From assembly GCA_017432385.1 (NCBI GenBank), contig JAFRJH010000028.1:1-42661 (forward strand): a DNA stretch of 42,661 bases. Reading direction: 5' to 3'. Within the stretch, counting starts at the first letter, position 1. Each line of letters begins with the position of its first letter. Made by a program: the position numbers and the translations under genes. Below, one piece after another: positions 7,291 through 18,210 of the stretch. Under the pieces are notes generated by a model. It saw only the letters and a list, made by a program, of their open reading frames with translations. It made no database searches and had not been told where the DNA came from. This DNA is from Kiritimatiellia bacterium. GTDB lineage: Bacteria; Verrucomicrobiota; Kiritimatiellia; RFP12; UBA1067.

Positions 7291-8214
7291 ATGAGACAAG
7301 TCCTCACATCGCTGCTTTTCGCCGCCGCACTCGCTGTTTCCGCAGCCGAGCGGGACCGCGCTCCTGAAATAGGCGCGATCAAGACGTCCGGAACGGTCCT
7401 GGAGAGCCCTGATGGCGCGGTCGTGGCGTGGACGGAGGCGTCCGACCCCGAGGGCGGCGCCGTTTCGTGGCGCTGGGAGCTGTATGCCGACACTCCCGAC
7501 TTCGAAAAGAATCTTTCTTCCGCAACGGCCAAGGCGGGCATCGCCGGCTCGATAGTGTCCGGGCAGGGCACTCCGTCCGTCGTCGCCAAGCTCCCCTCGG
7601 CGGGCGCGTACCGCCTGTGCGCCTTCGTGTCCGATGCGGCCGGAAACGCCTCTCACGCGAGCGTCTCCGTCAGGCTGCCCTCCGGCGCGGACGACGCGGC
7701 GCTCCCCGCGGCGGAAATGCCGCGCGCGGTCTACCGCGACGGCTCTGCGGCGAGCTGGTTTGCGAGCGGATACATGGGCAACCGCGACGCGCTCTCGCTC
7801 GACGAGATGTGCCACGAGACGCCGCACGACGGCGCCACATGCCTCAAGATCGAGTATTCCGCGAAGGACGGCTGGGCCGGGGTCTACTGGCAGGACCCCG
7901 CGAACGACTGGGGGGACCTCCCCGGCGGCGCCAACCTCTCGAAGGCGACGGCGCTCGAGTTCTACGCCCGCGGGGAGCGCGGCGGCGAGAAGGCCACCTT
8001 CTTCATGGGGGGCATTACCGACAAGCGGTTCTCCGACACATGCCGCGCGGAGCTTAAGGACGCTGTTCTCTCCAGGGAATGGACCAGATGTCGCATTCCC
8101 CTCGCGGGACTCGACCTGAAGCGCGTGAAGAGCGGCTTTGGCTTCGTGTTGGCGGCCGACGGGGCGCCGGTGACCTTTTATCTTGACGACATCCAATACA
8201 TAGCAGAGAGATGA
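7291..8214 (+). CDS. secreted Ig-like + CBM-like (beta-sandwich) protein without a catalytic domain
   Basis: Signal peptide MRQVLTSLLFAAALAVSAAE. Both modules are paralogous to the C-terminal half of the next gene: SDPEGGAVSWRWEL vs SDPEGDRLIWKWTL, and WFASGYMGN...CLKIEYSAKDGWAGVYWQDPANDWG...FYLDDIQYI vs WFVSGYMGN...CMKISYSAGDNWAGIMWQSPANDWG...FYLDDIQYV. The track start at 7282 is a GTG; I prefer ATG 7291. Confidence 0.8.
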   Translation: MRQVLTSLLFAAALAVSAAERDRAPEIGAIKTSGTVLESPDGAVVAWTEASDPEGGAVSWRWELYADTPDFEKNLSSATAKAGIAGSIVSGQGTPSVVAKLPSAGAYRLCAFVSDAAGNASHASVSVRLPSGADDAALPAAEMPRAVYRDGSAASWFASGYMGNRDALSLDEMCHETPHDGATCLKIEYSAKDGWAGVYWQDPANDWGDLPGGANLSKATALEFYARGERGGEKATFFMGGITDKRFSDTCRAELKDAVLSREWTRCRIPLAGLDLKRVKSGFGFVLAADGAPVTFYLDDIQYIAER

Positions 8215-9998
8215 AAACACGCATCTACGGCACAGGACGGACGATTGGCGCGACGGCTGTCGCGGCATTTGCGGCATTCCATGCGATCGCGGGCTCGGTC
8301 GTCAAGATCGAGGGAACCGAAGGCGCCTGGCATCTGACGTTCAACGGAAAGCCCTACTTCATCAACGGCGGCGGAGGCGGCGGGTCGAAGGCTCTTCTCA
8401 GGGAGATCGGCGGCAATTCGTTCCGCACGTGGGGCGCCGACAAGGCGAAGAAGGAGCTGAACGAGGCGGCTAAATACGGCCACACCGTGATGCTCGGCTT
8501 CTGGCTCGGCCACCACAACCACGGCTTCAGCTACCTCGACAGGGCGGCGCTTGAGCGCACGGAACGCGAGGTGCTCGAGACTGTCTCGAAGATCAAGGGG
8601 CATCCCGCGCTCCTCTGCTACGCGCTCGGCAACGAGATGGAGCTCGGCGAGCCCAACCCGAAGGAGATGTGGACCTTCATCAACGACCTCGCAAGGAAGG
8701 TCAAGGCGGCGGATCCGGACCATCCAGTCGGCACCGTCGTCGCGGACATGTGGAAGGACAAGGCGGACGCGATCATCAGGTACGCGCCCGAACTCCAGTA
8801 CATGGGCCTCAACTCCTATGGCGGCGCGCTCACCGTCGGCAGACGCTGGCGCGAGCTCGGAGGCAGGATCCCGTATATCCTAACCGAGTACGGCCCGATG
8901 GGGGCCGACGAGTGCGGCAAGGCGCCGAACGGCCTTCCGCTCGAATGGACGTCGACGCGCAAGGCGGAGTGGTACCGCGATGTCTACGAGAAGACGATCC
9001 TCGACGAGAAGGGCAAGTGGTGCCTCGGCGGATATGTCTTCACATGGGGACACAAGAACGAGGTCTCGCCGACGTGGTTCGGCACGATGCTCCCCGACGG
9101 AACGAAGCTCGAGGTCGTCGCGACGCTCGCGAAGTTCTGGGGGCGGAAGGTCTCCAACCGCTGCCCCGTGATCGGGGAGGTGAAGGTCTCGAAGGACGCC
9201 CCCGGGGAAGGCGAGACCGTCGAGGCCTCGGTGTCCGCCAGCGATCCCGAGGGCGACAGGCTCATTTGGAAGTGGACGCTCGTCGACGAGGCCTCGTACT
9301 ACGGCGAGGCGGGGCTCGGACTTGCGATGCCCGAGGGATGGGACGAGGCGATTGTCGCCGGGCAGGGCACGGACAGGGTCAAGGTGAAGCTTCCCGGAGG
9401 CGGCAAGTACCGTCTCTACGCGTACTGCTTCGACGGCAGGGGCAACGCCGCGTACGCGAACTGGCCCATGCTGGGGAAGGGCCCGAAGCCGAAGAAGGAA
9501 CGCCGCGCCGAGAAGCTTCCGTTCGCCGTGTACGACGACTCTCCGCGCCACTGGTTCGTGTCCGGATACATGGGCAACACCGGCGCACTGAAGGTCGAGG
9601 ACTCGTGCGGGGAGAATCCGCGTTCGGGCGATGCCTGCATGAAAATCTCGTATTCGGCGGGAGACAACTGGGCGGGAATAATGTGGCAGAGCCCCGCGAA
9701 CGACTGGGGCAAGGCGGACGGGGGATTCAACCTCTCCGAGGCGAACACGCTCGTCTTCTGGGCGCGCGGCGAGAAGGGCGGCGAGAAGGTCAAGTTCTTC
9801 TGCGGAGGTTTGAAGGACTGCGCGTTTCCCGACACCGGCAAGGGCGAGACGGAAATCGTGCTGAAGAAGGGGTGGACGCGCTATCGCATCGCTCTCGACG
9901 GCCAGGACCTCTCGCGCATGAAGACCGGCTTTGCCTTCACGCTGGGCGGTCCGGCGAAGACTTTCTACCTTGACGACATCCAGTACGTGAGCCAGTGA
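8211..9998 (+). CDS. clan GH-A (beta/alpha)8 glycoside hydrolase with C-terminal Ig-like and CBM-like modules
   Basis: The ATG overlaps the upstream stop (ATGA at 8211-8214). GGNSFRTWG, LCYALGNEMELG (candidate acid/base NE) and PYILTEYGP (candidate nucleophile E). C-terminal modules begin at about 9162. The exact GH family is not assignable by eye (GH5- or GH158-like architecture). Confidence 0.7.
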   Translation: MKTRIYGTGRTIGATAVAAFAAFHAIAGSVVKIEGTEGAWHLTFNGKPYFINGGGGGGSKALLREIGGNSFRTWGADKAKKELNEAAKYGHTVMLGFWLGHHNHGFSYLDRAALERTEREVLETVSKIKGHPALLCYALGNEMELGEPNPKEMWTFINDLARKVKAADPDHPVGTVVADMWKDKADAIIRYAPELQYMGLNSYGGALTVGRRWRELGGRIPYILTEYGPMGADECGKAPNGLPLEWTSTRKAEWYRDVYEKTILDEKGKWCLGGYVFTWGHKNEVSPTWFGTMLPDGTKLEVVATLAKFWGRKVSNRCPVIGEVKVSKDAPGEGETVEASVSASDPEGDRLIWKWTLVDEASYYGEAGLGLAMPEGWDEAIVAGQGTDRVKVKLPGGGKYRLYAYCFDGRGNAAYANWPMLGKGPKPKKERRAEKLPFAVYDDSPRHWFVSGYMGNTGALKVEDSCGENPRSGDACMKISYSAGDNWAGIMWQSPANDWGKADGGFNLSEANTLVFWARGEKGGEKVKFFCGGLKDCAFPDTGKGETEIVLKKGWTRYRIALDGQDLSRMKTGFAFTLGGPAKTFYLDDIQYVSQ

Positions 9999-10009
9999 TT
10001 GAAAGGAGC

Positions 10010-13000
10010 ATGATGAAAAGACTTCTTGCTGTTGCGATCGCGTCCACGGCAGTCTCTCTCTCGGCCGGCACCTACACCTGGACCGGAGCGGCCGGCAACG
10101 GCCTGTACTTCACCGCCGGCAACTGGGACTACACCGACGACGGCGGCGCGACGACGTCCCCCGCCGCGACCTCGCCGGGCAGCACGCCCGCGGACGACAT
10201 CGTGATCGCCAACGGCGATACGGTGTCCTACGACCCCGGCGGCGACTGGAAGCCGAGCGGGACGACGACGATCTCCGGCGGCTCGACGCTTGTGCAGATC
10301 ACCGGCGGCGCCTGGGCGGAGATCCGCGGCGCGCTGGTCCTCGACGGCGGCACCTACGATTCCGGAACGGCCGGGCAGGTCCGTTTCGACGGGACGGTGA
10401 CGGTGCGCAGCGGCGGCACCCTCTTCCTGCGGGGGACGGCGAGCAACTCCAGCCTCGGCTCGTTCGTGATCGAAACGGGCGGAACGGTCGTCCGCACGGG
10501 TGCCTGGGCCGGCGCGATTCCGCTCGTGATGCGCGGAGGCTGGTTCGAATGCCAGGGCACGTTGTCCAGCCCGAACGCGGCCGACGAATACACGAGCGGT
10601 ACGATCTTCGTTTCGTCCGGCGAGTTCCAGCCGCCGTCGGACACGGAGTTCGACCTGGGCGGCGTGGACTGGATCGTCCGGATGATCTCGCCCCGCCAGA
10701 ACGGCGTCCCCGTCCTCTCCGGCGGCTCCCTCACTCTCTTCAATTCCGGCAACGACGGCTTCTACCAGATGGCCGGCGTCCACGCGAACCTGCCCGCCGG
10801 CTCCGGCGCGGCGGTGACGGTTCCTCGCGCTCCGGAGGACGTCTACTCTCGATACTTCTCGAACGGCAAGTTCACCGTCGCGGGCGCCACGCTCACGCAG
10901 GCCGAATTCGCGGAGCAGATCGTCGTGGAAGCCGCCGCGACGCCGACGAACGGCAACGCCTCGGCGTATTCGACGTTCCGCCTCGCGGCCGTCTCCCCCT
11001 ACGGCATCACGTCGCCTGCCGCCAGCGAAGTCGGCGAAACCTCGGCGACGATCTCCGCGTTCGTGTCGAAGACCGACCCCGGCGCGACGGTCTACGCGCT
11101 CTGGGGCGCGGCCGCAGCCGCGACGGACGACCTCTCCGCGTGGGACCATGCCGAGAGCGCAGGCGCGGCCGTCGCGGAAACCACCTTCACGAAGGCACTT
11201 TCCGGACTGGAGACGGACGTCCCCGTCCACTACGCCTTCGCGATCGTCACGAACGGCGCGGTCGCGGCCGCGACCGCCGTGAAGGCCTTCACGCCGAGCG
11301 CCTACTCCGCCGTCTTCACGGGCGCGGCGGGCGACGGGCTCTGGGCCACCCCCGGCAACTGGCGCGACGGCGTCGTTCTGACCGAGTCTGACACGATCCG
11401 CATCGACGCGGACTGCACGCGTTCCGGCAACCTCAACCTGCAGAACTGGGACATCACCGTGAACGGTGCCTCGTTCGTCTGTACCGCCGAGCTCAACCCC
11501 GGCCCGCGGACGGTCTTGAACGGCTCGATCACGGCCGTCACGTTCATCGCTGGCGGCACGGGCAACGCGCTCGTCGTCCGCGGCTCGTCCGTCGTCTCTA
11601 CGCGCACTAGCAACCTTGGCCAGGCCCCGCGCGGCTTCTACGGCGCCGATCCGCACTTCGACTTCCGCTCAGGCGCCCCGTGCTCCTATACCTACGCCTA
11701 CAATCCCGAGGGCGAGCCCCCGGACTTCTCGGCGGAGTTCAATGCGCTCTTCGCGGGCGGCAAGATCCTCGTGGACGGCGCCGCGCTCACGGCCGCCGAC
11801 ATCGGCCGCGTCGCGTATTCCACGAACACCACCGACCACACCGTGACGCTCACGCTCCTCGAGACGACGGTGAACGCCGCCTTCGCGAGAGCCGCGTCGG
11901 CGAGCGTCGACGGCCTCGCCGCGACGCTCTCCGTCCCGGTCGAGGTCGGCGGCGGAAAGCCGCTCTATCTCCTTTTCGGCACCGATCCGGCGTCCCTCGA
12001 GGAGACGCTCGTCGCAGCCTCCGCTGCCGACGCAACGACCTATACGTTCACGACCAACGGCGTCGAAGGGACGCTCTACCACTACCAGTTCCGCCTCGGC
12101 GAGGCGAACGACCCGGAGTCCGTCCTCGACTCCGCCACGCCCCAGACGTTCTTCGCCTCCGTGACGGGCAACCTCTTCACCGGCACCGCGAACGAGCACG
12201 CCAACGACGCCAGGAACTGGTCGAAGGGCGCGGTTCCCTCGGCTTCGGACATCGTCTACGTCGTAGCCGACGTCGCCAAGCGCGGCACGATGCAGTGGGA
12301 CCTCGAGAACGCGACCGTCGCCGGCTGGGTCCAGATCGGCGAGCGCGTGAACTTCCTGACCACACCCTCCAACGTGCTGACGGTCGCAGGCGACGTCTCG
12401 CTCTCCGGCGGCGCCAACTGGACGCACCTCGGCCCGTCCGCCGCGCCGGAGACGAGTGTCAACGTCGCCGTCACGGGCGACCTGTCGCTCTCCGCCGACT
12501 CCGTGATCCAGGCGGGCACAGCGAGCGACGCTGGCGCGCGACAGTCGCGCGGCTGGTCCCGCAGCGGCCCTGGCTACCGCGAGGACGCGGGTGGCTCGCA
12601 TGCCGGCGACGGCGGGCATTGCACCAACATTACCGGATTCGTCAGCTACGGCTCGATCCTCGACCCGCTTTCGTGGGGCTCCGGCGCGCCTGGCGACGGC
12701 CACGCCTACGCGGGCGGCGGCGTAGTGAAGCTCGTGGTGGGCGGAACGCTCGCGAACGACGGCCTCATCGCCTCGCGCGGCTTCGGCTACGCCCTGGAGG
12801 GCTTTGGCTCCGGTTCCGGGGGGTCCGTCAACATCACTGCCGGCGCGCTGGCCGGATCGGGCGCAATCGACGCCAACGGAGGCAACAACGGACTGCTCGG
12901 TCCCGGTTCCGGAGGACGCGTCAAGGTCGCGCTGACCGGCGCGAACGCGAGTTTCGCGAACTTCTCCGGCACCATCGAGGCGATCGGCGGCTCCATGCAG

Positions 13001-13471
13001 AACCAGACGCAGGCCGACTCGCGGGACATATCGCCCGCCGCCGCCGGCACGGTTTGCCTCTCGACTGCCGCGGACACGGCGCCGACCGTACGCGTCCACA
13101 ACGAATTCCACTACGGCAACGGCCCCGCCACCTGGCGCGTCGCGACCGATCCGGACGCAGTTCCTTCGGCAACGCATCTGCCGGCGATGCAGAACCACGA
13201 CTCGCCTGCGGCGCTCAAGCGCACCAGGTGGGAGCTCTCGGGCAACGGAGCGGTCCGCCTTACTTCCGACGTCATGGTTGCATCCCTTGTCCTTGCGTCA
13301 GGTGACGGCACGCAGATGGTCTACACGGACGGGTTCAAGCTTACGACGCCCACGCTGAGCGTCAATGGCGTCAAGCTCCACGGCGTGTACACGAAGGACA
13401 ATGCAGCCTGGGTCGCCGGCGACGGCTCGGTCACGGTCGGGGGCAGCGGATTCCTCGTATTCGTGCGCTGA
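10010..13471 (+). CDS. giant secreted beta-helix/adhesin-like protein, paralog A
   Basis: SD aaaggag at 10002-10008, then ATGATG at 10010/10013. Signal peptide MMKRLLAVAIASTAVSLSA, then GTYTWTGAAGNGLYFTAGNWDY. Gly-rich solenoid-like C-terminal module (GGSHAGDGGH...GGGVVKLVVGG...GSGGSVNITAG...GGRVKVALTG). Ends GSGFLVFVR. Confidence 0.85.
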   Translation: MMKRLLAVAIASTAVSLSAGTYTWTGAAGNGLYFTAGNWDYTDDGGATTSPAATSPGSTPADDIVIANGDTVSYDPGGDWKPSGTTTISGGSTLVQITGGAWAEIRGALVLDGGTYDSGTAGQVRFDGTVTVRSGGTLFLRGTASNSSLGSFVIETGGTVVRTGAWAGAIPLVMRGGWFECQGTLSSPNAADEYTSGTIFVSSGEFQPPSDTEFDLGGVDWIVRMISPRQNGVPVLSGGSLTLFNSGNDGFYQMAGVHANLPAGSGAAVTVPRAPEDVYSRYFSNGKFTVAGATLTQAEFAEQIVVEAAATPTNGNASAYSTFRLAAVSPYGITSPAASEVGETSATISAFVSKTDPGATVYALWGAAAAATDDLSAWDHAESAGAAVAETTFTKALSGLETDVPVHYAFAIVTNGAVAAATAVKAFTPSAYSAVFTGAAGDGLWATPGNWRDGVVLTESDTIRIDADCTRSGNLNLQNWDITVNGASFVCTAELNPGPRTVLNGSITAVTFIAGGTGNALVVRGSSVVSTRTSNLGQAPRGFYGADPHFDFRSGAPCSYTYAYNPEGEPPDFSAEFNALFAGGKILVDGAALTAADIGRVAYSTNTTDHTVTLTLLETTVNAAFARAASASVDGLAATLSVPVEVGGGKPLYLLFGTDPASLEETLVAASAADATTYTFTTNGVEGTLYHYQFRLGEANDPESVLDSATPQTFFASVTGNLFTGTANEHANDARNWSKGAVPSASDIVYVVADVAKRGTMQWDLENATVAGWVQIGERVNFLTTPSNVLTVAGDVSLSGGANWTHLGPSAAPETSVNVAVTGDLSLSADSVIQAGTASDAGARQSRGWSRSGPGYREDAGGSHAGDGGHCTNITGFVSYGSILDPLSWGSGAPGDGHAYAGGGVVKLVVGGTLANDGLIASRGFGYALEGFGSGSGGSVNITAGALAGSGAIDANGGNNGLLGPGSGGRVKVALTGANASFANFSGTIEAIGGSMQNQTQADSRDISPAAAGTVCLSTAADTAPTVRVHNEFHYGNGPATWRVATDPDAVPSATHLPAMQNHDSPAALKRTRWELSGNGAVRLTSDVMVASLVLASGDGTQMVYTDGFKLTTPTLSVNGVKLHGVYTKDNAAWVAGDGSVTVGGSGFLVFVR
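12170..13468 (+). repeat. conserved C-terminal module, copy 1 (shared with 14738-16078)
   Basis: Collinear protein similarity with paralog B runs from NLFTGTANEHANDARNWSKGAVPSASDIV to the C-terminus. The two genes share nucleotide strings such as accggattcgt, atcctcgacccgctttc and ggacgcgtcaaggtcgcgct. Confidence 0.8.
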
Positions 13472-13513
13472 GGGTCTCCTGCGGTGCAATACTGGTTTTA
13501 GAAAGGGAAAAAC

Positions 13514-16081
13514 ATGAAGAAAATCATTACAATCGCAGTCGCGGCTGTGGCAGGGCACCTCCTCGCCGGCACATACACCTGGACCGGTTCGGCCGGCGAC
13601 GGCCTGTGGACTACAGCCGCAAACTGGAACTATTACGGTGAAACAGCGACTTCGCATCCGGGTAATTCGCCTTCAGATGATGTTGTGATTGATGGAAATT
13701 ACAATGTTATCTATGATGTCGGGTCTGACTTCACTCCGCAGGCAAACGTTGTCATAACGGTATCCGGAGGGGCAACACTTACCCAACAAGGTGGCAACTG
13801 GCAGGACTTCAAAGAGGGGGCTGAACTGATACTTGACAATGGCTCCTACGACGGTGGCTCGGCAACCAATTTCCGACTCAACAATGGAAAGCTTACAATC
13901 AGGAATGGGGGAAAGTTCACTTGTTCTAACGGTGAGCTTAGCCGTAGTGATGCCTCGGTAGTCACTGTGGAATCTGGCGATATTACGCTGAAAGGTAATT
14001 TCAGGTTGCTTGCTTCAGATCGGTTCGTCAGTGGATCAATTACAACAGATGGTGAATTGGTCCCGACAACGAACATCACGCTTGATGGTTTTAGTTTGTC
14101 CTGCTCTACGATGACACCGGCGAATAATCCTGTGATCACCCTGAAGTCCGGTTCGATTTCTACAAGGCGAACAGCAGATGCATCGGATGCCGGTTTCTGG
14201 GGCGCATGTACCGTTGATATTCTTATTGGAAAGGTTGCTTCGTTTTCTGCGCTTGTCCATAATGACAAGACTGCTTATGCAGATACATATGGCACCACGA
14301 GATTTAAGTATAACGGTCCTTCGCTTACGGCTGAAGAATTTGCGGAAATATTCACGACGGAGATTACCTCTGATGGAGATTACTCTCGCTACACGATTTC
14401 TACATCTGAAGTTTCAGGCGCTCCCGCTATCGATAGCTATTCAGCAACCTACTCGGATTCTGCAATTTCATTCGAGGTTTCGCTTGAAGAGTCGTCGGCA
14501 CCGGACACTGTTCTCACACTTTACTATGATACTGCGGATCATGAGCATAACACGTCTTTTGGTTGGCCGAATAGCGTTCCGCTTGTTCTTGATTCGACAG
14601 ACGGTAAATACAAAGCCGTTGTCAATACAAACGTTGATGCGGTTTATTATTACTTGGTTTCTGCCTCAAGCGAATCGGCAGCCCAGACAATTTGGGCAAG
14701 TGGCACCGTTATTGCTGCTGACATGCCGACAGATTCAAACGTTTGGCTCGGCAACACATCAGACATTACACTTCCTTCCAATTGGTCGAAACAGGCGGTG
14801 CCTGGTGCTGACGACATTGTAGAAATTAGCCAGTTCTTCTCCAAGGGAAATCGAATCAACTGGAATGTAGCGGCTGTGCCAGAGGTTGCAGGATGGAGGC
14901 AGAGCAATGCAATGGTTGTTTCGTTCAACACGACAGCGTCATCCGCATTTCTAATCAGTGGGGACGCAAGACTCACGGCTGGTACTTGGACGCATGGCGG
15001 GCCGGCGGATGTGCCGACTGAAATGGTCAATGTTTCCGTTGGTGGCGCGATGACCGTTGGCGCGAACGCCCGCATTGTTGCAGGCACTGGATCGAATGCG
15101 GACGACAACGACGGTGCACCGCGCGGCTATACGCGTGCACATGGTCCTGGCTATCTGCGCACGGCCGGCGGGTCGTATGCAGGAGATGGCGGACACATCA
15201 CGAACACGACCGGATTCGTGAGCTACGGCTCCATCCTCGACCCGCTTTCCTACGGCTCCGGCGGCTGGGGCGACAACTCCGGCTACGGCGGCGGTGGCGT
15301 GATCCGGCTCGTTGTCGGCGGCGCGCTGACGATGGACGGCGTCATCCGCTCCCGCGGATTCGGCTACGCGCTCAACGGGACGATTCCCGAAACCGGGGAA
15401 AGCACCGCGGGTGGCGCGGGCTCCGGCGGATCTATCAACATCACCGCCGCTTCGCTCTCGGGCTCGGGCTCGATCGACGCCAACGGCGGCAATAACGGCC
15501 TCTACGGTCCTGGCAGCGGCGGACGCGTCAAGGTCGCGCTCACCGGCGCGGGAGAGGACTTCTCCGGATTCGCCGGCACGATCGAGGCTGTCGGCGGCTG
15601 GATGGAAAGCCTTGAGTCGCCGGAGTTTTTCGATGTGTCCCCGGCCGCCGCCGGAACCGTATGTCTGCAGGCTGGCGCCGCGAATCCCGTCGTGAAGGTC
15701 CACAATGTCTTCCGCATCGCGGGCGTCGACTCGACGTGGCGCGTCGCCACGGGCGAGGCGGTTCCCTCCGCCACGCACCTGCCGTCCATGCAGGGCGGGG
15801 ACGTGATGTCAGCGCTCAAGAAGACGGCCTGGGAGCTTTCGGGGCGCGGCGCGATCAGGCTCACTGCCGACGCGAGGGTCGCTTCGCTGACGCTCGCCTC
15901 CGACGGCGGCGACCAGCGCGTCTACACCGAAGGGCACACGCTGACGGTCTCCCGCTTCACGGTGAACGGGCTCAAGGTGCCGTATGGCGTGTACACCTCC
16001 GCCGACAAGCCGGGAATCATCATCGGCGACGGCGCGGTCGAGGTGAGGAACTCCGCCGGAATGGCAGTGTACGTTAGGTAA
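13514..16081 (+). CDS. giant secreted beta-helix/adhesin-like protein, paralog B (mosaic composition)
   Basis: Signal peptide MKKIITIAVAAVAGHLLA, then GTYTWTGSAGDGLWTTAANWNY. The C-terminal module is homologous to paralog A. Ends SAGMAVYVR. The central part of the gene is strikingly AT-richer than its surroundings. Confidence 0.85.
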   Translation: MKKIITIAVAAVAGHLLAGTYTWTGSAGDGLWTTAANWNYYGETATSHPGNSPSDDVVIDGNYNVIYDVGSDFTPQANVVITVSGGATLTQQGGNWQDFKEGAELILDNGSYDGGSATNFRLNNGKLTIRNGGKFTCSNGELSRSDASVVTVESGDITLKGNFRLLASDRFVSGSITTDGELVPTTNITLDGFSLSCSTMTPANNPVITLKSGSISTRRTADASDAGFWGACTVDILIGKVASFSALVHNDKTAYADTYGTTRFKYNGPSLTAEEFAEIFTTEITSDGDYSRYTISTSEVSGAPAIDSYSATYSDSAISFEVSLEESSAPDTVLTLYYDTADHEHNTSFGWPNSVPLVLDSTDGKYKAVVNTNVDAVYYYLVSASSESAAQTIWASGTVIAADMPTDSNVWLGNTSDITLPSNWSKQAVPGADDIVEISQFFSKGNRINWNVAAVPEVAGWRQSNAMVVSFNTTASSAFLISGDARLTAGTWTHGGPADVPTEMVNVSVGGAMTVGANARIVAGTGSNADDNDGAPRGYTRAHGPGYLRTAGGSYAGDGGHITNTTGFVSYGSILDPLSYGSGGWGDNSGYGGGGVIRLVVGGALTMDGVIRSRGFGYALNGTIPETGESTAGGAGSGGSINITAASLSGSGSIDANGGNNGLYGPGSGGRVKVALTGAGEDFSGFAGTIEAVGGWMESLESPEFFDVSPAAAGTVCLQAGAANPVVKVHNVFRIAGVDSTWRVATGEAVPSATHLPSMQGGDVMSALKKTAWELSGRGAIRLTADARVASLTLASDGGDQRVYTEGHTLTVSRFTVNGLKVPYGVYTSADKPGIIIGDGAVEVRNSAGMAVYVR
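14738..16078 (+). repeat. conserved C-terminal module, copy 2 (shared with 12170-13468)
   Basis: NVWLGNTSDITLPSNWSKQAVPGADDIV...GPGYLRTAGGSYAGDGGH...GGRVKVALTG...SATHLPSMQ... is collinear with paralog A. Confidence 0.8.
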
Positions 16082-16092
16082 TCCGGTCCGAC

Positions 16093-18210
16093 ATGAAAAG
16101 GATGCTTTCCATTTTCGCGGCCGCGGTGGTTTCCGCCGCGGCCGCCGCGGACGGCGCGCGCTGGATATGGTATCCCGGCGACTACGGGATATGGTGGGGC
16201 AACGAGCTCCAGGGCGAGAGGCTCCAGTGGGGTTCGCGGCTCGTTCCGTTCTGGCCGCTCTACGAGCCGCATTCGCGCGTGCTGTTCAGGAAGGACGTGA
16301 AGCTGGACGCGGACGAGCCGCTGGAGATCCGCTGCGACGGAAACGCCGCGGTCTGGTGGTGGGACGACAAAGGCGTCTACACTGAGAGCTCCGCGCTTCT
16401 CGGGAAGTTCACGCTGCCGAAGAACGCGACCTCCATCGAGATCAAGATCCAGAACAACGCGCGTCCGCCGTCGGTGTGGGTGAAGGGTCCGCACCTCGTC
16501 TCGGACTCCTCCTGGAACGTCGGCTGGACGACGACGTGGGACAAGGCGGAGGATGTTCCGTGCGATTCCTCCGCGCGCTTCACCGACCCCGGGACGCCTC
16601 CGGGCCTCGCGAAGCTTCCGACGCGCGAGAAGAAGCCCGTCTGGTGCCGTCCGCTCGACGGCGTGGAAGGCTCGATCATGGCGGCCGACTTCGGCGAGGA
16701 GACCTACGGATACGTCAGGTTCATCGACGTGAAGGGCGGCGGCGCCGTGAAGGTGATCTACGCCGAGAGCGAGGCGGAGCTGAGAGCCGTCGAGCTCGCG
16801 AACACGAAGGGCGGCGCGCTTGACGGATGGGAGATGCTCGAGCTGTCGGAGACGAAGGAGTTCCGGCGCGACATCGCGCACGGTTTCCGCTACGTCGGCG
16901 TCGTGCGCGCGGGCGGCGACGTCTCGATCGGCGGAATCGCGATGGACTTCGAGACGAAGGCCATGCCGGTTCGCGGGTCGTTCCGCTGCAGCGACGTGGA
17001 GCTGAACCGGATATGGGACGTCTCGGTGCACACGCTGGACCTCACGTGCCGCGAGGTCTTCATCGAGGGCGTGAAGCGAGACCACTGGGTGTGGAGCGGC
17101 GACGCCGTGCAGAGCTTCCTCATGAACTACTACGTGTTCGGGGACTACGACGGATGCCGCGACACGCTCTGGACGCTGCGCGGGAAGGATCCGGTGAAGT
17201 GCCACCTCAACCGCATCATGGACTACACGTTCTACTGGTTCGACGCCGTGGAGAAGTACCGGCTCTACTCCGGCGATCCCGTGTTCGCGCGCCAGGTGTA
17301 TCCGCGCATGAAGTCGCTTATGGAATTCGCGATCTCCCGTCTCGACGCCGCGGGGCGTCCGGCGGACCGCGAGGGCGACTGGATGTTCATCGACTGGGCG
17401 CCGAAGCCGCTGCCGAACAACGGCGGAGTCACGAGCTTCGAGCAGATGCTCCTGGTGCGCGCGCTCGAGGCGACGGCAGGGGTCGCGCGCGACGTCGGCG
17501 CGAAGGGGGACGAGGCGGCGTACCTCGAGCGCGCGAAGAGGCTGCGCGCGGAGATCGTGCCGCGCTACTGGAACGCGGAGAAGGGCGCGCTTATGCACAT
17601 GATCTACAACGACGGCAGGGTGGATCCGACGGTGACGAGGTACCCGAACATGTTCGGGCTCTTCTACGGCTACTTCGACGAGGCGCAGAGGTCTAGTGTC
17701 GTGAAGAACGTGATGCTCGGCGACGGCGTGATGAAGATCCAGACGCCGTACATGCGCTTCTACGAGCTCGAGGCGCTCTGCTCGCTCGGGATGCAGAAGC
17801 GCGTTCTCGGCGAGGTGAAGTCCTACTGGGGCGGCATGCTGCGCCTGGGGGCGACGAGCTTCTGGGAGCTGTACAATCCGGATGAAAGCGGCGAGGCCCA
17901 CTACGCCATGTACGGGCGCCGCTTCGGGAAGTCGCTCTGCCACGCCTGGGGCGCGAGCCCCGTCTATCTGCTCGGCAGGTATTTCCTCGGCGTGGAGCCG
18001 ACTGCCCCCGGCTTCGCGGAGTATGTCGTGAAGCCGGATTCCGGCGGTCTCGAGTGGATGGAGGGGGATGTGCCTACGCCGTCCGGGAGCATCCATGTGT
18101 CGGTGCGCGGCGGACGCGCGACCGTGCGCGGCAACCATGCCGGCAGGGGCGTCCTCCGCTGGAAGGGGAAAACGGCGGAGATACCGCCTGAAGGGAGTGC
18201 AAGCCTATGA
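16093..18210 (+). CDS. six-hairpin glycosidase, GH78 (alpha-L-rhamnosidase)-like
   Basis: Signal peptide MKRMLSIFAAAVVSAAAAA. ARWIWYPGD N-terminal pattern. FRCSDVELNRIWDVSVHTL...FIEGVKRDHWVWSGDA resembles the GH78 catalytic-domain entry (D.pkRD..gWtGD). SLCHAWGASPVYLL lies near the C-terminus. Confidence 0.6.
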   Translation: MKRMLSIFAAAVVSAAAAADGARWIWYPGDYGIWWGNELQGERLQWGSRLVPFWPLYEPHSRVLFRKDVKLDADEPLEIRCDGNAAVWWWDDKGVYTESSALLGKFTLPKNATSIEIKIQNNARPPSVWVKGPHLVSDSSWNVGWTTTWDKAEDVPCDSSARFTDPGTPPGLAKLPTREKKPVWCRPLDGVEGSIMAADFGEETYGYVRFIDVKGGGAVKVIYAESEAELRAVELANTKGGALDGWEMLELSETKEFRRDIAHGFRYVGVVRAGGDVSIGGIAMDFETKAMPVRGSFRCSDVELNRIWDVSVHTLDLTCREVFIEGVKRDHWVWSGDAVQSFLMNYYVFGDYDGCRDTLWTLRGKDPVKCHLNRIMDYTFYWFDAVEKYRLYSGDPVFARQVYPRMKSLMEFAISRLDAAGRPADREGDWMFIDWAPKPLPNNGGVTSFEQMLLVRALEATAGVARDVGAKGDEAAYLERAKRLRAEIVPRYWNAEKGALMHMIYNDGRVDPTVTRYPNMFGLFYGYFDEAQRSSVVKNVMLGDGVMKIQTPYMRFYELEALCSLGMQKRVLGEVKSYWGGMLRLGATSFWELYNPDESGEAHYAMYGRRFGKSLCHAWGASPVYLLGRYFLGVEPTAPGFAEYVVKPDSGGLEWMEGDVPTPSGSIHVSVRGGRATVRGNHAGRGVLRWKGKTAEIPPEGSASL

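What the first reader, a model, noticed from the sequence alone, without database searches (positions are those of the whole stretch)
13620..15050. Low-GC cassette embedded between conserved high-GC ends of paralog B
Seen: hand counts of 60-nt lines inside 13620-14900 give about 40-42% G+C (lines starting 13681 and 14281). The flanking parts of the same gene and the neighbouring genes give above 60% (line starting 12601). G+C climbs back between about 15000 and 15180. The first roughly 100 nt (signal peptide plus the GTYTWTG motif) and the last roughly 900 nt are high-GC and similar to paralog A, down to shared nucleotide strings of 11-20 nt. A single intact ORF runs through all three zones. 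Inference: the passenger region was replaced by recombination, using the conserved termini as anchors, with DNA from a lower-GC donor. The locus may be a cassette-exchange site for surface-protein variation.
Basis: partly seen in the sequence, partly recalled or inferred. Interest (0 to 1): 0.6.

Follow-up and report, generated by a model that had tools for sequence, protein, structure and literature searches.

The report
Mosaic secreted-protein gene, low-GC front
One gene for a secreted beta-helix protein in an uncultured gut-type Kiritimatiellae bacterium is a patchwork: its front two-thirds is a low-GC version that moves between related species and its last third is an ordinary high-GC version, joined by recombination at the family's most conserved stretch, which is a familiar kind of gene mosaic in a protein family nobody has characterised.

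Summary
Gene B (13514-16081, 855 aa) has about 47-49% G+C from about 13620 to 15000. The genome has 64% and the neighbouring genes 65-72%. GC3 is 0.4-0.55 up to codon ~550 and 0.82-0.92 after it.

The cause is a mosaic gene. Up to nt ~15198, B is 90-98% identical to alleles (P0003/4/5) that are low-GC over their whole length. These sit at syntenic or other loci in related metagenome contigs. From nt 15205 on, B groups with high-GC family members (P0034/35, 82-90% over ~300-450 nt). The breakpoint (max chi-square 432; permutation maximum 19) lies in the family's most conserved Gly-rich block.

The same N/C reassortment recurs in other family pairs from independent assemblies. Loci with ~90%-identical flanks carry four different B alleles. 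The low-GC segment has a lower dS than its flanks and shows no amelioration. This points to recent exchange between lineages.

I found no silent cassettes, invertase or DGR. This is ordinary homologous allelic replacement, not a programmed cassette system.

Two things stay unresolved. One is direction: low-GC import versus overwriting of the 3' third.

Phenomenon known; family uncharacterised. The scan's notes showed nothing like it on other DNA.

The parts
13514..16081 (+). Gene B: 855-aa secreted protein of an uncharacterised Kiritimatiellae family. Predicted layout: signal peptide, beta-helix, Ig-like sandwich, Gly-rich beta-helix. This is the mosaic gene.
   Evidence: ORF and translation. 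No Pfam, NCBIfam or PDB sequence hit. AF2 model with mean pLDDT 86.9.
13495..13569 (+). RBS (AGAAAGGGAAA) and signal-peptide codons of the low-GC-allele type. Homology with the relatives' B loci starts here. Upstream of it, the relatives' AT-rich promoter region is replaced by the 3' end of paralog A.
   Evidence: Alignments. At informative sites in 13514-13563, B matches P3 at 24 and P34 at 3.
13570..13603 (+). High-GC micro-patch in the GTYTWTG motif region. Eight consecutive informative sites match paralog A and P0034/35 rather than the low-GC alleles. It is either a candidate short conversion tract or retained recipient sequence.
   Evidence: The 14-mer shared with A at 13574 is.
13604..15198 (+). 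Low-GC segment (GC3 0.4-0.55). It is 90-98% nt identical to allele P0003 (L019/20/21), 81-96% to P0004 (76-81% only over its last ~250 nt) and 76-94% to P0005. It encodes the N-terminal beta-helix, the Ig-like domain and the first ~140 aa of the shared C-terminal module.
   Evidence: dS to P3 is 0.215, against 0.35-0.55 in the flanks.
15198..15205 (+). Recombination breakpoint (aa 562-564), inside the family's most conserved block GGS.AGDGGH.TN.TGFVSYGSILDP.
   Evidence: Maximum chi-square is 432 (P3/P34), 420 (P3/P35) and 274 (P3/A), against permutation maxima of 13-25.
15205..15700 (+). High-GC segment (GC3 0.82-0.92). Its closest relatives are P0034 and P0035 from 67-70% G+C contigs, at 82-90% nt identity. 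Identity to the low-GC alleles is only 56-76%.
15701..16125 (+). High-GC 3' end of B, the 11-nt spacer and the first ~11 codons of the rhamnosidase gene. No close relative was found (45-74% nt identity). Homology with all syntenic relatives resumes at ~16118-16125.
9995..13471 (+). Paralog A (1158 aa, GC3 0.89). Its C-terminal 436 aa are 55% identical to B and its N-terminal ~300 aa are 31% identical. It occupies the place where relatives carry a RAYT-like gene flanked by 28-nt repeat arrays.
16093..18210 (+). Alpha-L-rhamnosidase-like gene. It is the conserved right flank (89-91% nt identity to L003, L020 and L034) that defines the syntenic locus.
8211..9998 (+). 595-aa gene X. It is the conserved left flank of the locus in relatives (77-84% nt identity).

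Best explanation
Gene B is a real recombinant mosaic of two alleles of one secreted beta-helix protein family.

A ~1.7-kb piece runs from the ribosome-binding site to nt ~15198. It comes from a low-GC allele lineage that circulates among related Kiritimatiellae. It is joined to a high-GC 3' third (15205 to about 16125) of host-like composition.

The join was made by homologous recombination inside the family's most conserved Gly-rich block. That block acts as a recurrent crossover point, re-assorting N-terminal modules (variable, presumably specificity-determining) with C-terminal modules across the family.

The version I favour is that the low-GC piece was imported into a resident high-GC gene sitting between paralog A and the rhamnosidase. 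The 34-nt high-GC patch near the 5' end would then be retained recipient sequence or a micro-conversion.

Shown: the mosaic structure, the breakpoint, the tree incongruence, the allelic diversity at the locus, the lower dS, and the lack of amelioration.

Inferred: the direction of transfer, the existence of an unsampled lower-GC source pool, and any role in substrate or surface variation.
For: - GC3 steps from 0.4-0.55 to 0.82-0.92 at codon ~550.
- Sliding nt identity of B to P3 is 90-98% over 13664-15089, then 63-73%. Identity of B to P34/P35 is 26-48%, then 82-90%.
- A single breakpoint lies between 15181/15198 and 15205. Chi-square is 432, against a maximum of 19 in 200 permutations. On the left, 766 of 811 informative sites are P3-type. 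On the right, 155 of 234 are P34-type.
- In the N-part tree, B sits with P0003/4/5 (100/100). In the C-part tree, B sits with P0034/35/36/40 (97). Holding B with P0003/4/5 in the C part costs 71.5 lnL, with AU p = 0.025.
- Hinge reassortment recurs in independent assemblies. P0005/P0041 are 28% identical in the N part and 94-100% in the C part. P0006/P0039 are 28% and 89-100%. P0035/P0021 are 100% and 58-75%.
- The alleles P0003/4/5 are low-GC over their whole length, in contigs of 60-64% G+C. They occur in three different contexts.
- dS of the low-GC part to P3 is 0.215 (0.17-0.29). The flanks give 0.35-0.47 (R) and 0.55 (X). Against L006 the values are 0.325 for the low-GC part, 0.74 for X and 0.94 for GH81.
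- B-specific substitutions in the low-GC part are balanced: 23 AT->GC against 24 GC->AT.
- Loci with R 89-91% identical carry four different B alleles.
- An A-B tandem with an all-high-GC B of the same N-type exists in L028.
Against: - No read-level or independent-assembly support exists for this exact chimeric gene. The exact protein is not on record, and the metagenome scan found only the P0005 locus.
- The direction is not proven. Four syntenic relatives share one B-3'-end/rhamnosidase-start sequence, and only this genome differs there. This fits overwriting of the 3' third in this lineage equally well.
- No donor above 98% identity was found for the low-GC piece, and none above 90% for the 3' piece. 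No low-GC donor genome was found among the 442 genomes searched.
- The clade for the AU test was chosen after the identity data had been seen.
- NG86 dS values from genes with very different GC3 are only roughly comparable.
Confidence: 0.8

Rival explanations
1. The mosaic is the same but the direction is reversed. The lineage first held a wholly low-GC allele at this locus, as L019/L020/L021 do now. The tract 15205-16125 (the 3' third of B, the spacer and the first codons of the rhamnosidase) was later overwritten by a high-GC family member. The 34-nt 5' patch was converted from paralog A or a similar gene, and paralog A was inserted upstream.
For: - The RBS and signal-peptide codons on both sides of the 5' patch are of the low-GC allele type.
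- Four syntenic relatives carrying three different B alleles share the same B-3'-end/rhamnosidase-start sequence, and only the window differs.
- In relatives the low-GC allele is a whole gene with its own promoter region.
Against: - It needs more events: a whole-gene import after the lineages split (dS 0.215 against 0.35-0.55 in the flanks), then the 3' overwrite, the 5' patch and the insertion of A.
- The high-GC donor is not in this genome. Paralog A is only 57-75% nt identical there, and there are no other close copies.
- An A-B tandem with a high-GC B exists elsewhere, in L028. This suggests the tandem is old.
Confidence: 0.33
2. Metagenome mis-assembly. The contig switches between two co-occurring family members at conserved stretches, so the chimeric ORF does not exist in any cell.
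For: - The genome is a fragmented MAG: 355 contigs, 83% complete, 3.5% contamination.
- The main junction lies in the most conserved block of a multi-copy family.
- The exact protein was not found in any other assembly.
Against: - At least three switches would be needed, near 13495, 15200 and 16120, plus the internal 34-nt patch.
- Identity between the known allele types at the junctions is only about 10-25 nt long. That is short for assembler k-mers.
- No orphan halves are present in the MAG: no low-GC 3' third and no high-GC N-part of the P0034 type.
- The ORF stays intact across every junction.
- The same kind of hinge mosaic is seen in several independent assemblies of other family members.
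Confidence: 0.1
3. The composition is native. The low G+C is maintained in place by selection or local mutation bias (for example translation pacing of a secreted beta-helix), with no transfer involved.
For: - AT<->GC substitutions on the B and P0005 branches are balanced, so the tract looks compositionally at equilibrium.
- The low-GC alleles persist in several 60-66% G+C genomes.
Against: - Alleles of the same N-type exist with GC3 of 0.8-0.98 (P0008, P0011) and 0.55-0.86 (P0006/7/9), so the protein does not require low GC.
- The composition step coincides with a change of nearest relative and with tree incongruence.
- dS is lower than in the flanks.
- The identified genes in other low-GC tracts of this genome are classic horizontally acquired types.
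Confidence: 0.03

Closest known systems
Interspecies mosaic genes made by homologous recombination, such as penA/pbp2x in Neisseria and Streptococcus (from my own knowledge)
   Same: Blocks within one intact ORF have different nearest relatives and different divergence. The crossovers lie in conserved stretches. The donors are related species sharing a habitat.
   Different: No drug selection is evident here. The blocks also differ strongly in base composition (GC3 0.45 against 0.9). The exchanged unit is a whole N-terminal module set of a secreted beta-helix protein of unknown function.
Allelic-type mosaicism of secreted or surface proteins, such as the Helicobacter pylori vacA s/i/m regions and Neisseria tbpB/opa/porB (from my own knowledge)
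   Same: Discrete, deeply diverged allele types of the N-terminal or middle regions are re-assorted with other parts of the gene by recombination. Several alleles occur at one syntenic locus in a population.
   Different: Here the exchange crosses species boundaries: flank dS is 0.35-0.9. No role in host interaction is known, and the gene sits in a glycoside-hydrolase operon.
Module swapping in restriction-enzyme specificity domains and Rhs/polymorphic-toxin tips
   Same: The same genome shows intragenic low-GC tracts in an MmeI-family enzyme, where the tract covers the end of the methylase domain and the target-recognition domain (C281). It also shows one at the C-terminal tip of an RHS-like protein with no Pfam match (C32). 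Both have a conserved part next to a swapped, compositionally foreign part.
   Different: In those systems the swapped part is the C-terminal specificity or toxin module. Here the low-GC part is N-terminal and covers two-thirds of the gene.
Programmed cassette systems: pilE/pilS and vlsE silent-cassette conversion, shufflons, and diversity-generating retroelements (from my own knowledge)
   Same: The outcome is similar: a variable segment of an exported protein bounded by conserved sequence.
   Different: There are no silent donor copies, no inverted repeats or recombinase at the gene, and no template repeat. I did not search for a reverse transcriptase. The substitutions are not adenine-specific. 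Defining features were tested and not met, so this is not a member.

Membership tests
Mosaic gene by homologous recombination (allelic replacement) | Abrupt, statistically supported change of nearest relative along one intact ORF | tested here: met
   Maximum chi-square is 432 at nt 15181-15205, against a permutation maximum of 19.
Mosaic gene by homologous recombination (allelic replacement) | Phylogenetic incongruence between the segments | tested here: met
   N-part tree and C-part tree. The AU test rejects B+P0003/4/5 as a clade in the C part (p = 0.025). The clade was named after identities had been seen.
Mosaic gene by homologous recombination (allelic replacement) | Crossover located in sequence conserved between the parental types | tested here: met
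   The breakpoint at aa 562-564 lies in the block with many invariant or near-invariant columns (G552-P577). Other family pairs break at aa ~500-600.
Mosaic gene by homologous recombination (allelic replacement) | The junctions exist in the organism's DNA (reads span them) | not testable with these tools
No independent assembly of the exact gene was found.
Horizontally acquired DNA recognised by composition | Composition far outside the genome's distribution, mainly at synonymous sites | tested here: met
   The tract is 4.3 sd below the genome mean. GC3 is 0.4-0.55 against 0.89 in paralog A. Amino-acid composition shifts only modestly.
Horizontally acquired DNA recognised by composition | A donor lineage with matching composition is identified | tested here: not met
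   The closest alleles lie in 60-64% G+C contigs. No hit was found in 442 Kiritimatiellae genomes beyond 30-50% identity. There was no plasmid or phage match.
Programmed cassette variation (silent-cassette conversion, shufflon, DGR) | Silent donor cassettes or a template repeat near the expressed gene | tested here: not met
   Within the window, only paralog-level repeats of 71-77% identity link B to A. The own genome holds no other close copy.
Programmed cassette variation (silent-cassette conversion, shufflon, DGR) | Site-specific recombinase with inverted repeats, or adenine-specific mutagenesis by a reverse transcriptase | tested here: not met
   There are no inverted repeats in 9900-16200. 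The flanking genes examined by Pfam are glycoside hydrolases and ApbE, or have no Pfam match. B-specific changes are balanced between AT->GC and GC->AT. I ran no search for a reverse transcriptase.

The most novel reading that the evidence does not exclude
The B locus would be an interspecies exchange hot spot for an uncharacterised, CAZyme-operon-linked exoprotein family. A conserved Gly-rich hinge would serve as a built-in crossover site that re-assorts N-terminal specificity modules. The low-GC allele class would be re-imported repeatedly from an unsampled lower-GC donor population. This would explain three things: its balanced AT/GC substitution flux, its dS lower than that of the flanks, and its presence in at least four genomic contexts. 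In relatives, a neighbouring RAYT-like gene with 28-nt repeat arrays might promote the exchange.
Probability: 0.25. Interest if true: 0.5.

Novelty: new member of a known kind. Interest (0 to 1): 0.35.

Why it matters
It gives a clean, quantified example of interspecies mosaic-gene formation in Kiritimatiellae, a poorly studied gut/rumen-type lineage. It also identifies a large, unannotated family of secreted beta-helix proteins, with no Pfam or NCBIfam model, that sit in glycoside-hydrolase operons. In this family the N- and C-terminal modules are shuffled at one conserved hinge.

If the N-terminal module sets glycan or surface specificity, its exchange could be a route by which these bacteria retune polysaccharide use or surface identity. 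For annotation and MAG quality control, it is a reminder that an intragenic GC step can mark a true recombination joint.

The phenomenon itself is well known, so the general significance is modest.

Tried and rejected
- Independent assembly of the same chimera: exact-protein look-up found nothing.
- Donor hunt: 41 relatives and 401 genomes of the class gave no N-type match above 50% identity. Plasmid and phage collections gave no match.
- Function: Pfam, NCBIfam and PDB sequence searches were empty. Foldseek against PDB gave no hit with E below 1e-3, only local Ig-like or beta-helix resemblances. Some relatives have a weak G8-domain hit.
- DGR or silent-cassette idea: rejected. There are no near-identical repeats and no inverted repeats, and the substitutions are balanced.
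- Recent gene conversion of the 3' third from paralog A: rejected. Identity there is only 57-75% nt.
- Vertical inheritance of the low-GC part with the flanks: disfavoured by dS.
- Amelioration signal on the B branch: looked for and not found.
- One dS value (R against L020, 0.75) was an artefact of a frameshift in that contig. It was recomputed by frame.
Full report
**1. The observation**

The window is contig C116 of a 2.74-Mb MAG with 355 contigs and 64.1% G+C. Hit names place it in Kiritimatiellae.

Gene B (13514-16081, +, 855 aa) follows paralog A (9995-13471, 1158 aa) in a run of glycoside-hydrolase genes:
- a GH2-like gene;
- gene X (8211-9998), with no Pfam match;
- A and B;
- an alpha-L-rhamnosidase-like gene (16093-18210);
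- a 608-aa gene whose counterparts in relatives are LAM55/pectate-like;
- a GH81 gene.

The lines at 13681 and 14281 have 40.0% and 41.7% G+C, and the line at 12601 has 61.7%. The first 100 nt of B have 61% and the last 900 nt have 67.9%. The strings shared with A include a 14-mer at 13574 and a 20-mer at 15521.

In 200-nt windows, G+C is 0.435-0.52 from 13600 to 14999 and returns to 0.64-0.68 by 15000-15300.

Against the whole genome (1-kb windows, mean 0.641, sd 0.039), the tract is about 4.3 sd low and ranks about 30th of 9702 windows.

By codon position, the signal is mainly synonymous. GC3 is 0.36-0.56 from codon 26 to about codon 550, then 0.76-0.92. Paralog A has GC3 of 0.89. Amino-acid composition shifts only a little (FYMINK 0.22 against 0.18-0.19).

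**2. What the low-GC part is**

It is not unrelated DNA. B residues 1-283 are still 31% identical to the N-terminus of A, and residues 423-855 are 55% identical to the C-terminal module of A. The low-GC zone therefore covers the whole N-terminal part and about 140 residues of the shared C-terminal module.

A database search with residues 30-520 found full-length homologues that are 89-91% identical (P0003, P0004, P0005). Others are 64-65% identical (P0006-P0009) or 54% identical (P0010, P0011).

I fetched their DNA. It shows the following:
- P0003/4/5 are low-GC over their entire length (gene G+C 0.51-0.52, GC3 0.36-0.72), inside contigs of 0.60-0.64.
- P0006, P0007 and P0009 are intermediate.
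- P0008 and P0011 have GC3 of 0.8-0.98.

So the protein type does not require low G+C.

**3. The mosaic**

Sliding nucleotide identity shows two regimes:
- B to P0003 is 90-98% over 13664-15089. It falls to 63-73% beyond 15239 and to about 46% at the 3' end.
- B to P0034/P0035 is the reverse. These are the best hits for residues 575-855 and are high-GC throughout. Identity is 26-48% in the front part and 82-90% over 15239-15540, declining afterwards.

A maximum chi-square scan of informative sites puts one breakpoint between nt 15181/15198 and 15205. Chi-square is 432 for P3/P34, 420 for P3/P35 and 274 for P3/A. The maxima in 200 permutations were 13-25. Left of the breakpoint, 766 of 811 sites are P3-type. 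Right of it, 155 of 234 are P34-type.

The breakpoint falls at residues 562-564, inside the family's most conserved block (GGS.AGDGGH.TN.TGFVSYGSILDP). In the AF2 model this is a Gly-rich loop region of the second beta-helix.

Trees agree with this:
- In the N part, B nests with P0003/4/5 (100/100) inside a 9-member clade on a very long branch.
- In the C part, B groups with P0034/35/36/40 (97), and P0003, P0004 and P0005 are scattered.
- Forcing B+P0003/4/5 together costs 71.5 lnL, with AU p = 0.025. The group was named after I had seen the identities.

**4. The two ends**

*5' end.* Homology with the relatives' B loci starts at the RBS (about 13495). Upstream, the relatives share an AT-rich promoter-like region, whereas the window has the end of paralog A.

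The signal-peptide codons 13514-13569 are of the low-GC allele type. A 34-nt patch (13570-13603, in the GTYTWTG motif region) follows, where eight consecutive informative sites match A and P0034/35 instead.

*3' end.* Homology to every syntenic relative resumes only at about 16118-16125, eleven codons into the rhamnosidase gene. The last ~380 nt of B have no close relative.

**5. The locus in relatives**

| Contigs | R identity to window | X identity to window | B allele |
|---|---|---|---|
| L003-5 | 89-91% nt | 79-84% | P0007 |
| L026/27 | 89-91% nt | 79-84% | P0006 |
| L019-21 | 89-91% nt | 79-84% | P0003 |
| L034 | 89-91% nt | not on contig | P0009 |

L006 has X, then P0004, then GH81.

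Two contigs whose flanks are about 93% identical to each other (L019 and L026/27) carry B alleles that are only about 64% identical in protein. B is thus a hypervariable gene at a conserved locus.

In these relatives, the place of paralog A is taken by a 275/332-aa ORF. It has an HUH motif and weak IS200/Y1-transposase similarity, and it is flanked by 28-nt tandem-repeat arrays. Neither the arrays nor the ORF are in the window.

An A-like gene directly followed by a wholly high-GC B of the same N-type occurs in L028.

**6. Age and direction**

NG86 dS values:

| Comparison | Low-GC segment | Flanks |
|---|---|---|
| Window vs P0003 genome (L019/L020) | 0.215 (bootstrap 0.17-0.29) | R 0.35-0.47; X 0.55 |
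| Window vs L006 | 0.325 | X 0.74; GH81 0.94 |
| P0003 vs P0004 | 0.15 | X 0.52 |

The low-GC allele has therefore moved between lineages after they diverged.

Substitutions private to B in the low-GC part are 23 AT->GC against 24 GC->AT, and 46 of 62 are at third positions. P0005 shows 39 against 43. There is no drift toward the host's GC3 of about 0.9. This suggests that most of this divergence arose in a lower-GC background and that arrival here is recent. Selection for low G+C is the less likely alternative.

I favour import of the piece from the RBS to nt 15198 into a resident high-GC B. That reading needs fewer events and fits the L028 tandem.

The reverse is not excluded: a resident low-GC allele whose 3' third (15205-16125) was overwritten. 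Four relatives share one B-3'-end/rhamnosidase-start sequence, and only the window differs there.

**7. Generality**

Hinge reassortment is a property of the family (independent ENA, NCBI and Logan assemblies):

| Pair | N part identity | C part identity |
|---|---|---|
| P0005 / P0041 | 28% | 94-100% |
| P0006 / P0039 | 28% | 89-100% (from residue 561) |
| P0035 / P0021 | 100% (residues 1-400) | 58-75% |

This argues that the joint in B is biological.

**8. Rivals**

The exact protein is not on record elsewhere. But it would need three or more switches through identities of only about 10-25 nt, and it would leave no orphan halves in the MAG.

*Native composition.* This is contradicted by the coincidence of the GC3 step with the phylogenetic breakpoint, and by the high-GC alleles of the same type.

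*Programmed cassette systems or DGRs.* These are rejected. There are no silent copies, no inverted repeats and no template repeat, and the substitutions are not adenine-specific.

*Other low-GC tracts in the genome.* There are 46 islands of 800 nt or more, 2.4% of the genome. Those I examined are mostly whole small ORFs, among them an EcoRI-type methylase and a GT2 glycosyltransferase. A few are intragenic swaps:
- an MmeI-family enzyme, low-GC over the end of the methylase domain and the target-recognition domain;
- an RHS-like protein with a low-GC tip (no Pfam match; RHS-like by eye);
- a 1583-aa protein with a low-GC C-terminus.

**9. What the protein is**

It has no Pfam, NCBIfam or PDB sequence match.

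The AF2 model (mean pLDDT 86.9) shows these parts in order:
- a signal peptide;
- a beta-solenoid (about residues 20-250);
- a small alpha/beta piece;
- an Ig-like sandwich (about residues 306-401);
- a second Gly-rich beta-helix that runs to the C-terminus.

Foldseek found nothing with E below 1e-3.

Family members regularly sit next to glycoside hydrolases: GH2, GH3, GH81, GH129, rhamnosidases and Glyco_hydro_cc. From this I infer a secreted glycan-binding or glycan-acting protein whose N-terminal module sets specificity. That is inference, not shown.

**10. Verdict**

The anchors, the nature of the "cassette", the donor and the direction need correction or stay open.

The phenomenon, an interspecies mosaic gene, is well known. 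The family and its hinge-centred shuffling are undescribed as far as the libraries searched show. Earlier notes of this scan cover only this same stretch. Nothing similar was noted on other DNA.

Noticed in passing
L019:1044-1198 and 2255-2356; L026:2909-3172; L019:1246-2244; L003:6990-7817: In syntenic relatives, the slot held by paralog A in the window holds a 275/332-aa ORF instead. The ORF has an HUH motif (MPDHVHL) and weak IS200/Y1-transposase similarity (E = 7e-4 and 3e-3, below the Pfam cut-off). It is flanked on both sides by arrays of a 28-nt tandem repeat (TCTTGGCGCGAGGCCCTTAACGCTGTCG, 3.6-9.6 copies). This looks like a RAYT with REP-like arrays directly upstream of the variable B gene. 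The repeat is absent from the window's own genome. A distant homologue of the ORF is on C142.
   Followed up: partly
G000 contig C281:2506-5268: An MmeI-family restriction-modification enzyme whose GC3 drops from about 0.8 to 0.42-0.58 over codons ~480-840. That span covers the end of the methylase domain and the target-recognition domain. It looks like a second intragenic module swap in the same genome.
   Followed up: partly
G000 contigs C32:9797-10927 (-) and C35:885-5636: An RHS-like 376-aa protein (no Pfam match; RHS-like by eye) has a low-GC C-terminal tip (GC3 falls from 0.85 to 0.33). A 1583-aa protein with no Pfam match has GC3 that falls from about 0.9 to 0.45 towards its C-terminus. 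Both are candidate swapped C-terminal modules.
   Followed up: no
window 16093-16125: The first ~11 codons of the rhamnosidase gene (the start of its signal peptide) differ from all four syntenic relatives, including a 9-nt length difference. The rest of the gene is 89-91% identical to them. The odd tract that begins in B therefore runs across the 11-nt spacer into the next gene.
   Followed up: yes
L003:7985-10527; L020:3575-4680: In relatives, the B allele P0007 is split into ORFs of 680 and 168 aa, and the L020 rhamnosidase is split into ORFs of 230 and 139 aa. These are frameshifts or assembly errors. P0007 may be a decaying allele.
   Followed up: no
window 13442-16081 and alignment A2: The C-terminal Arg (R855) and the short hydrophobic tail before it are nearly invariant across 61 family members, although the last ~120 residues are the most divergent part of the protein. 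This is consistent with a conserved C-terminal signal.
   Followed up: no
L001:14245-15063 (-); L029:2999-4060 (-): Other contexts of B-type alleles have mobile-element genes within a few kb. A Y1 transposase lies 3.7 kb downstream of P0005, and an rve-type integrase (faint hit) lies next to P0011.
   Followed up: no
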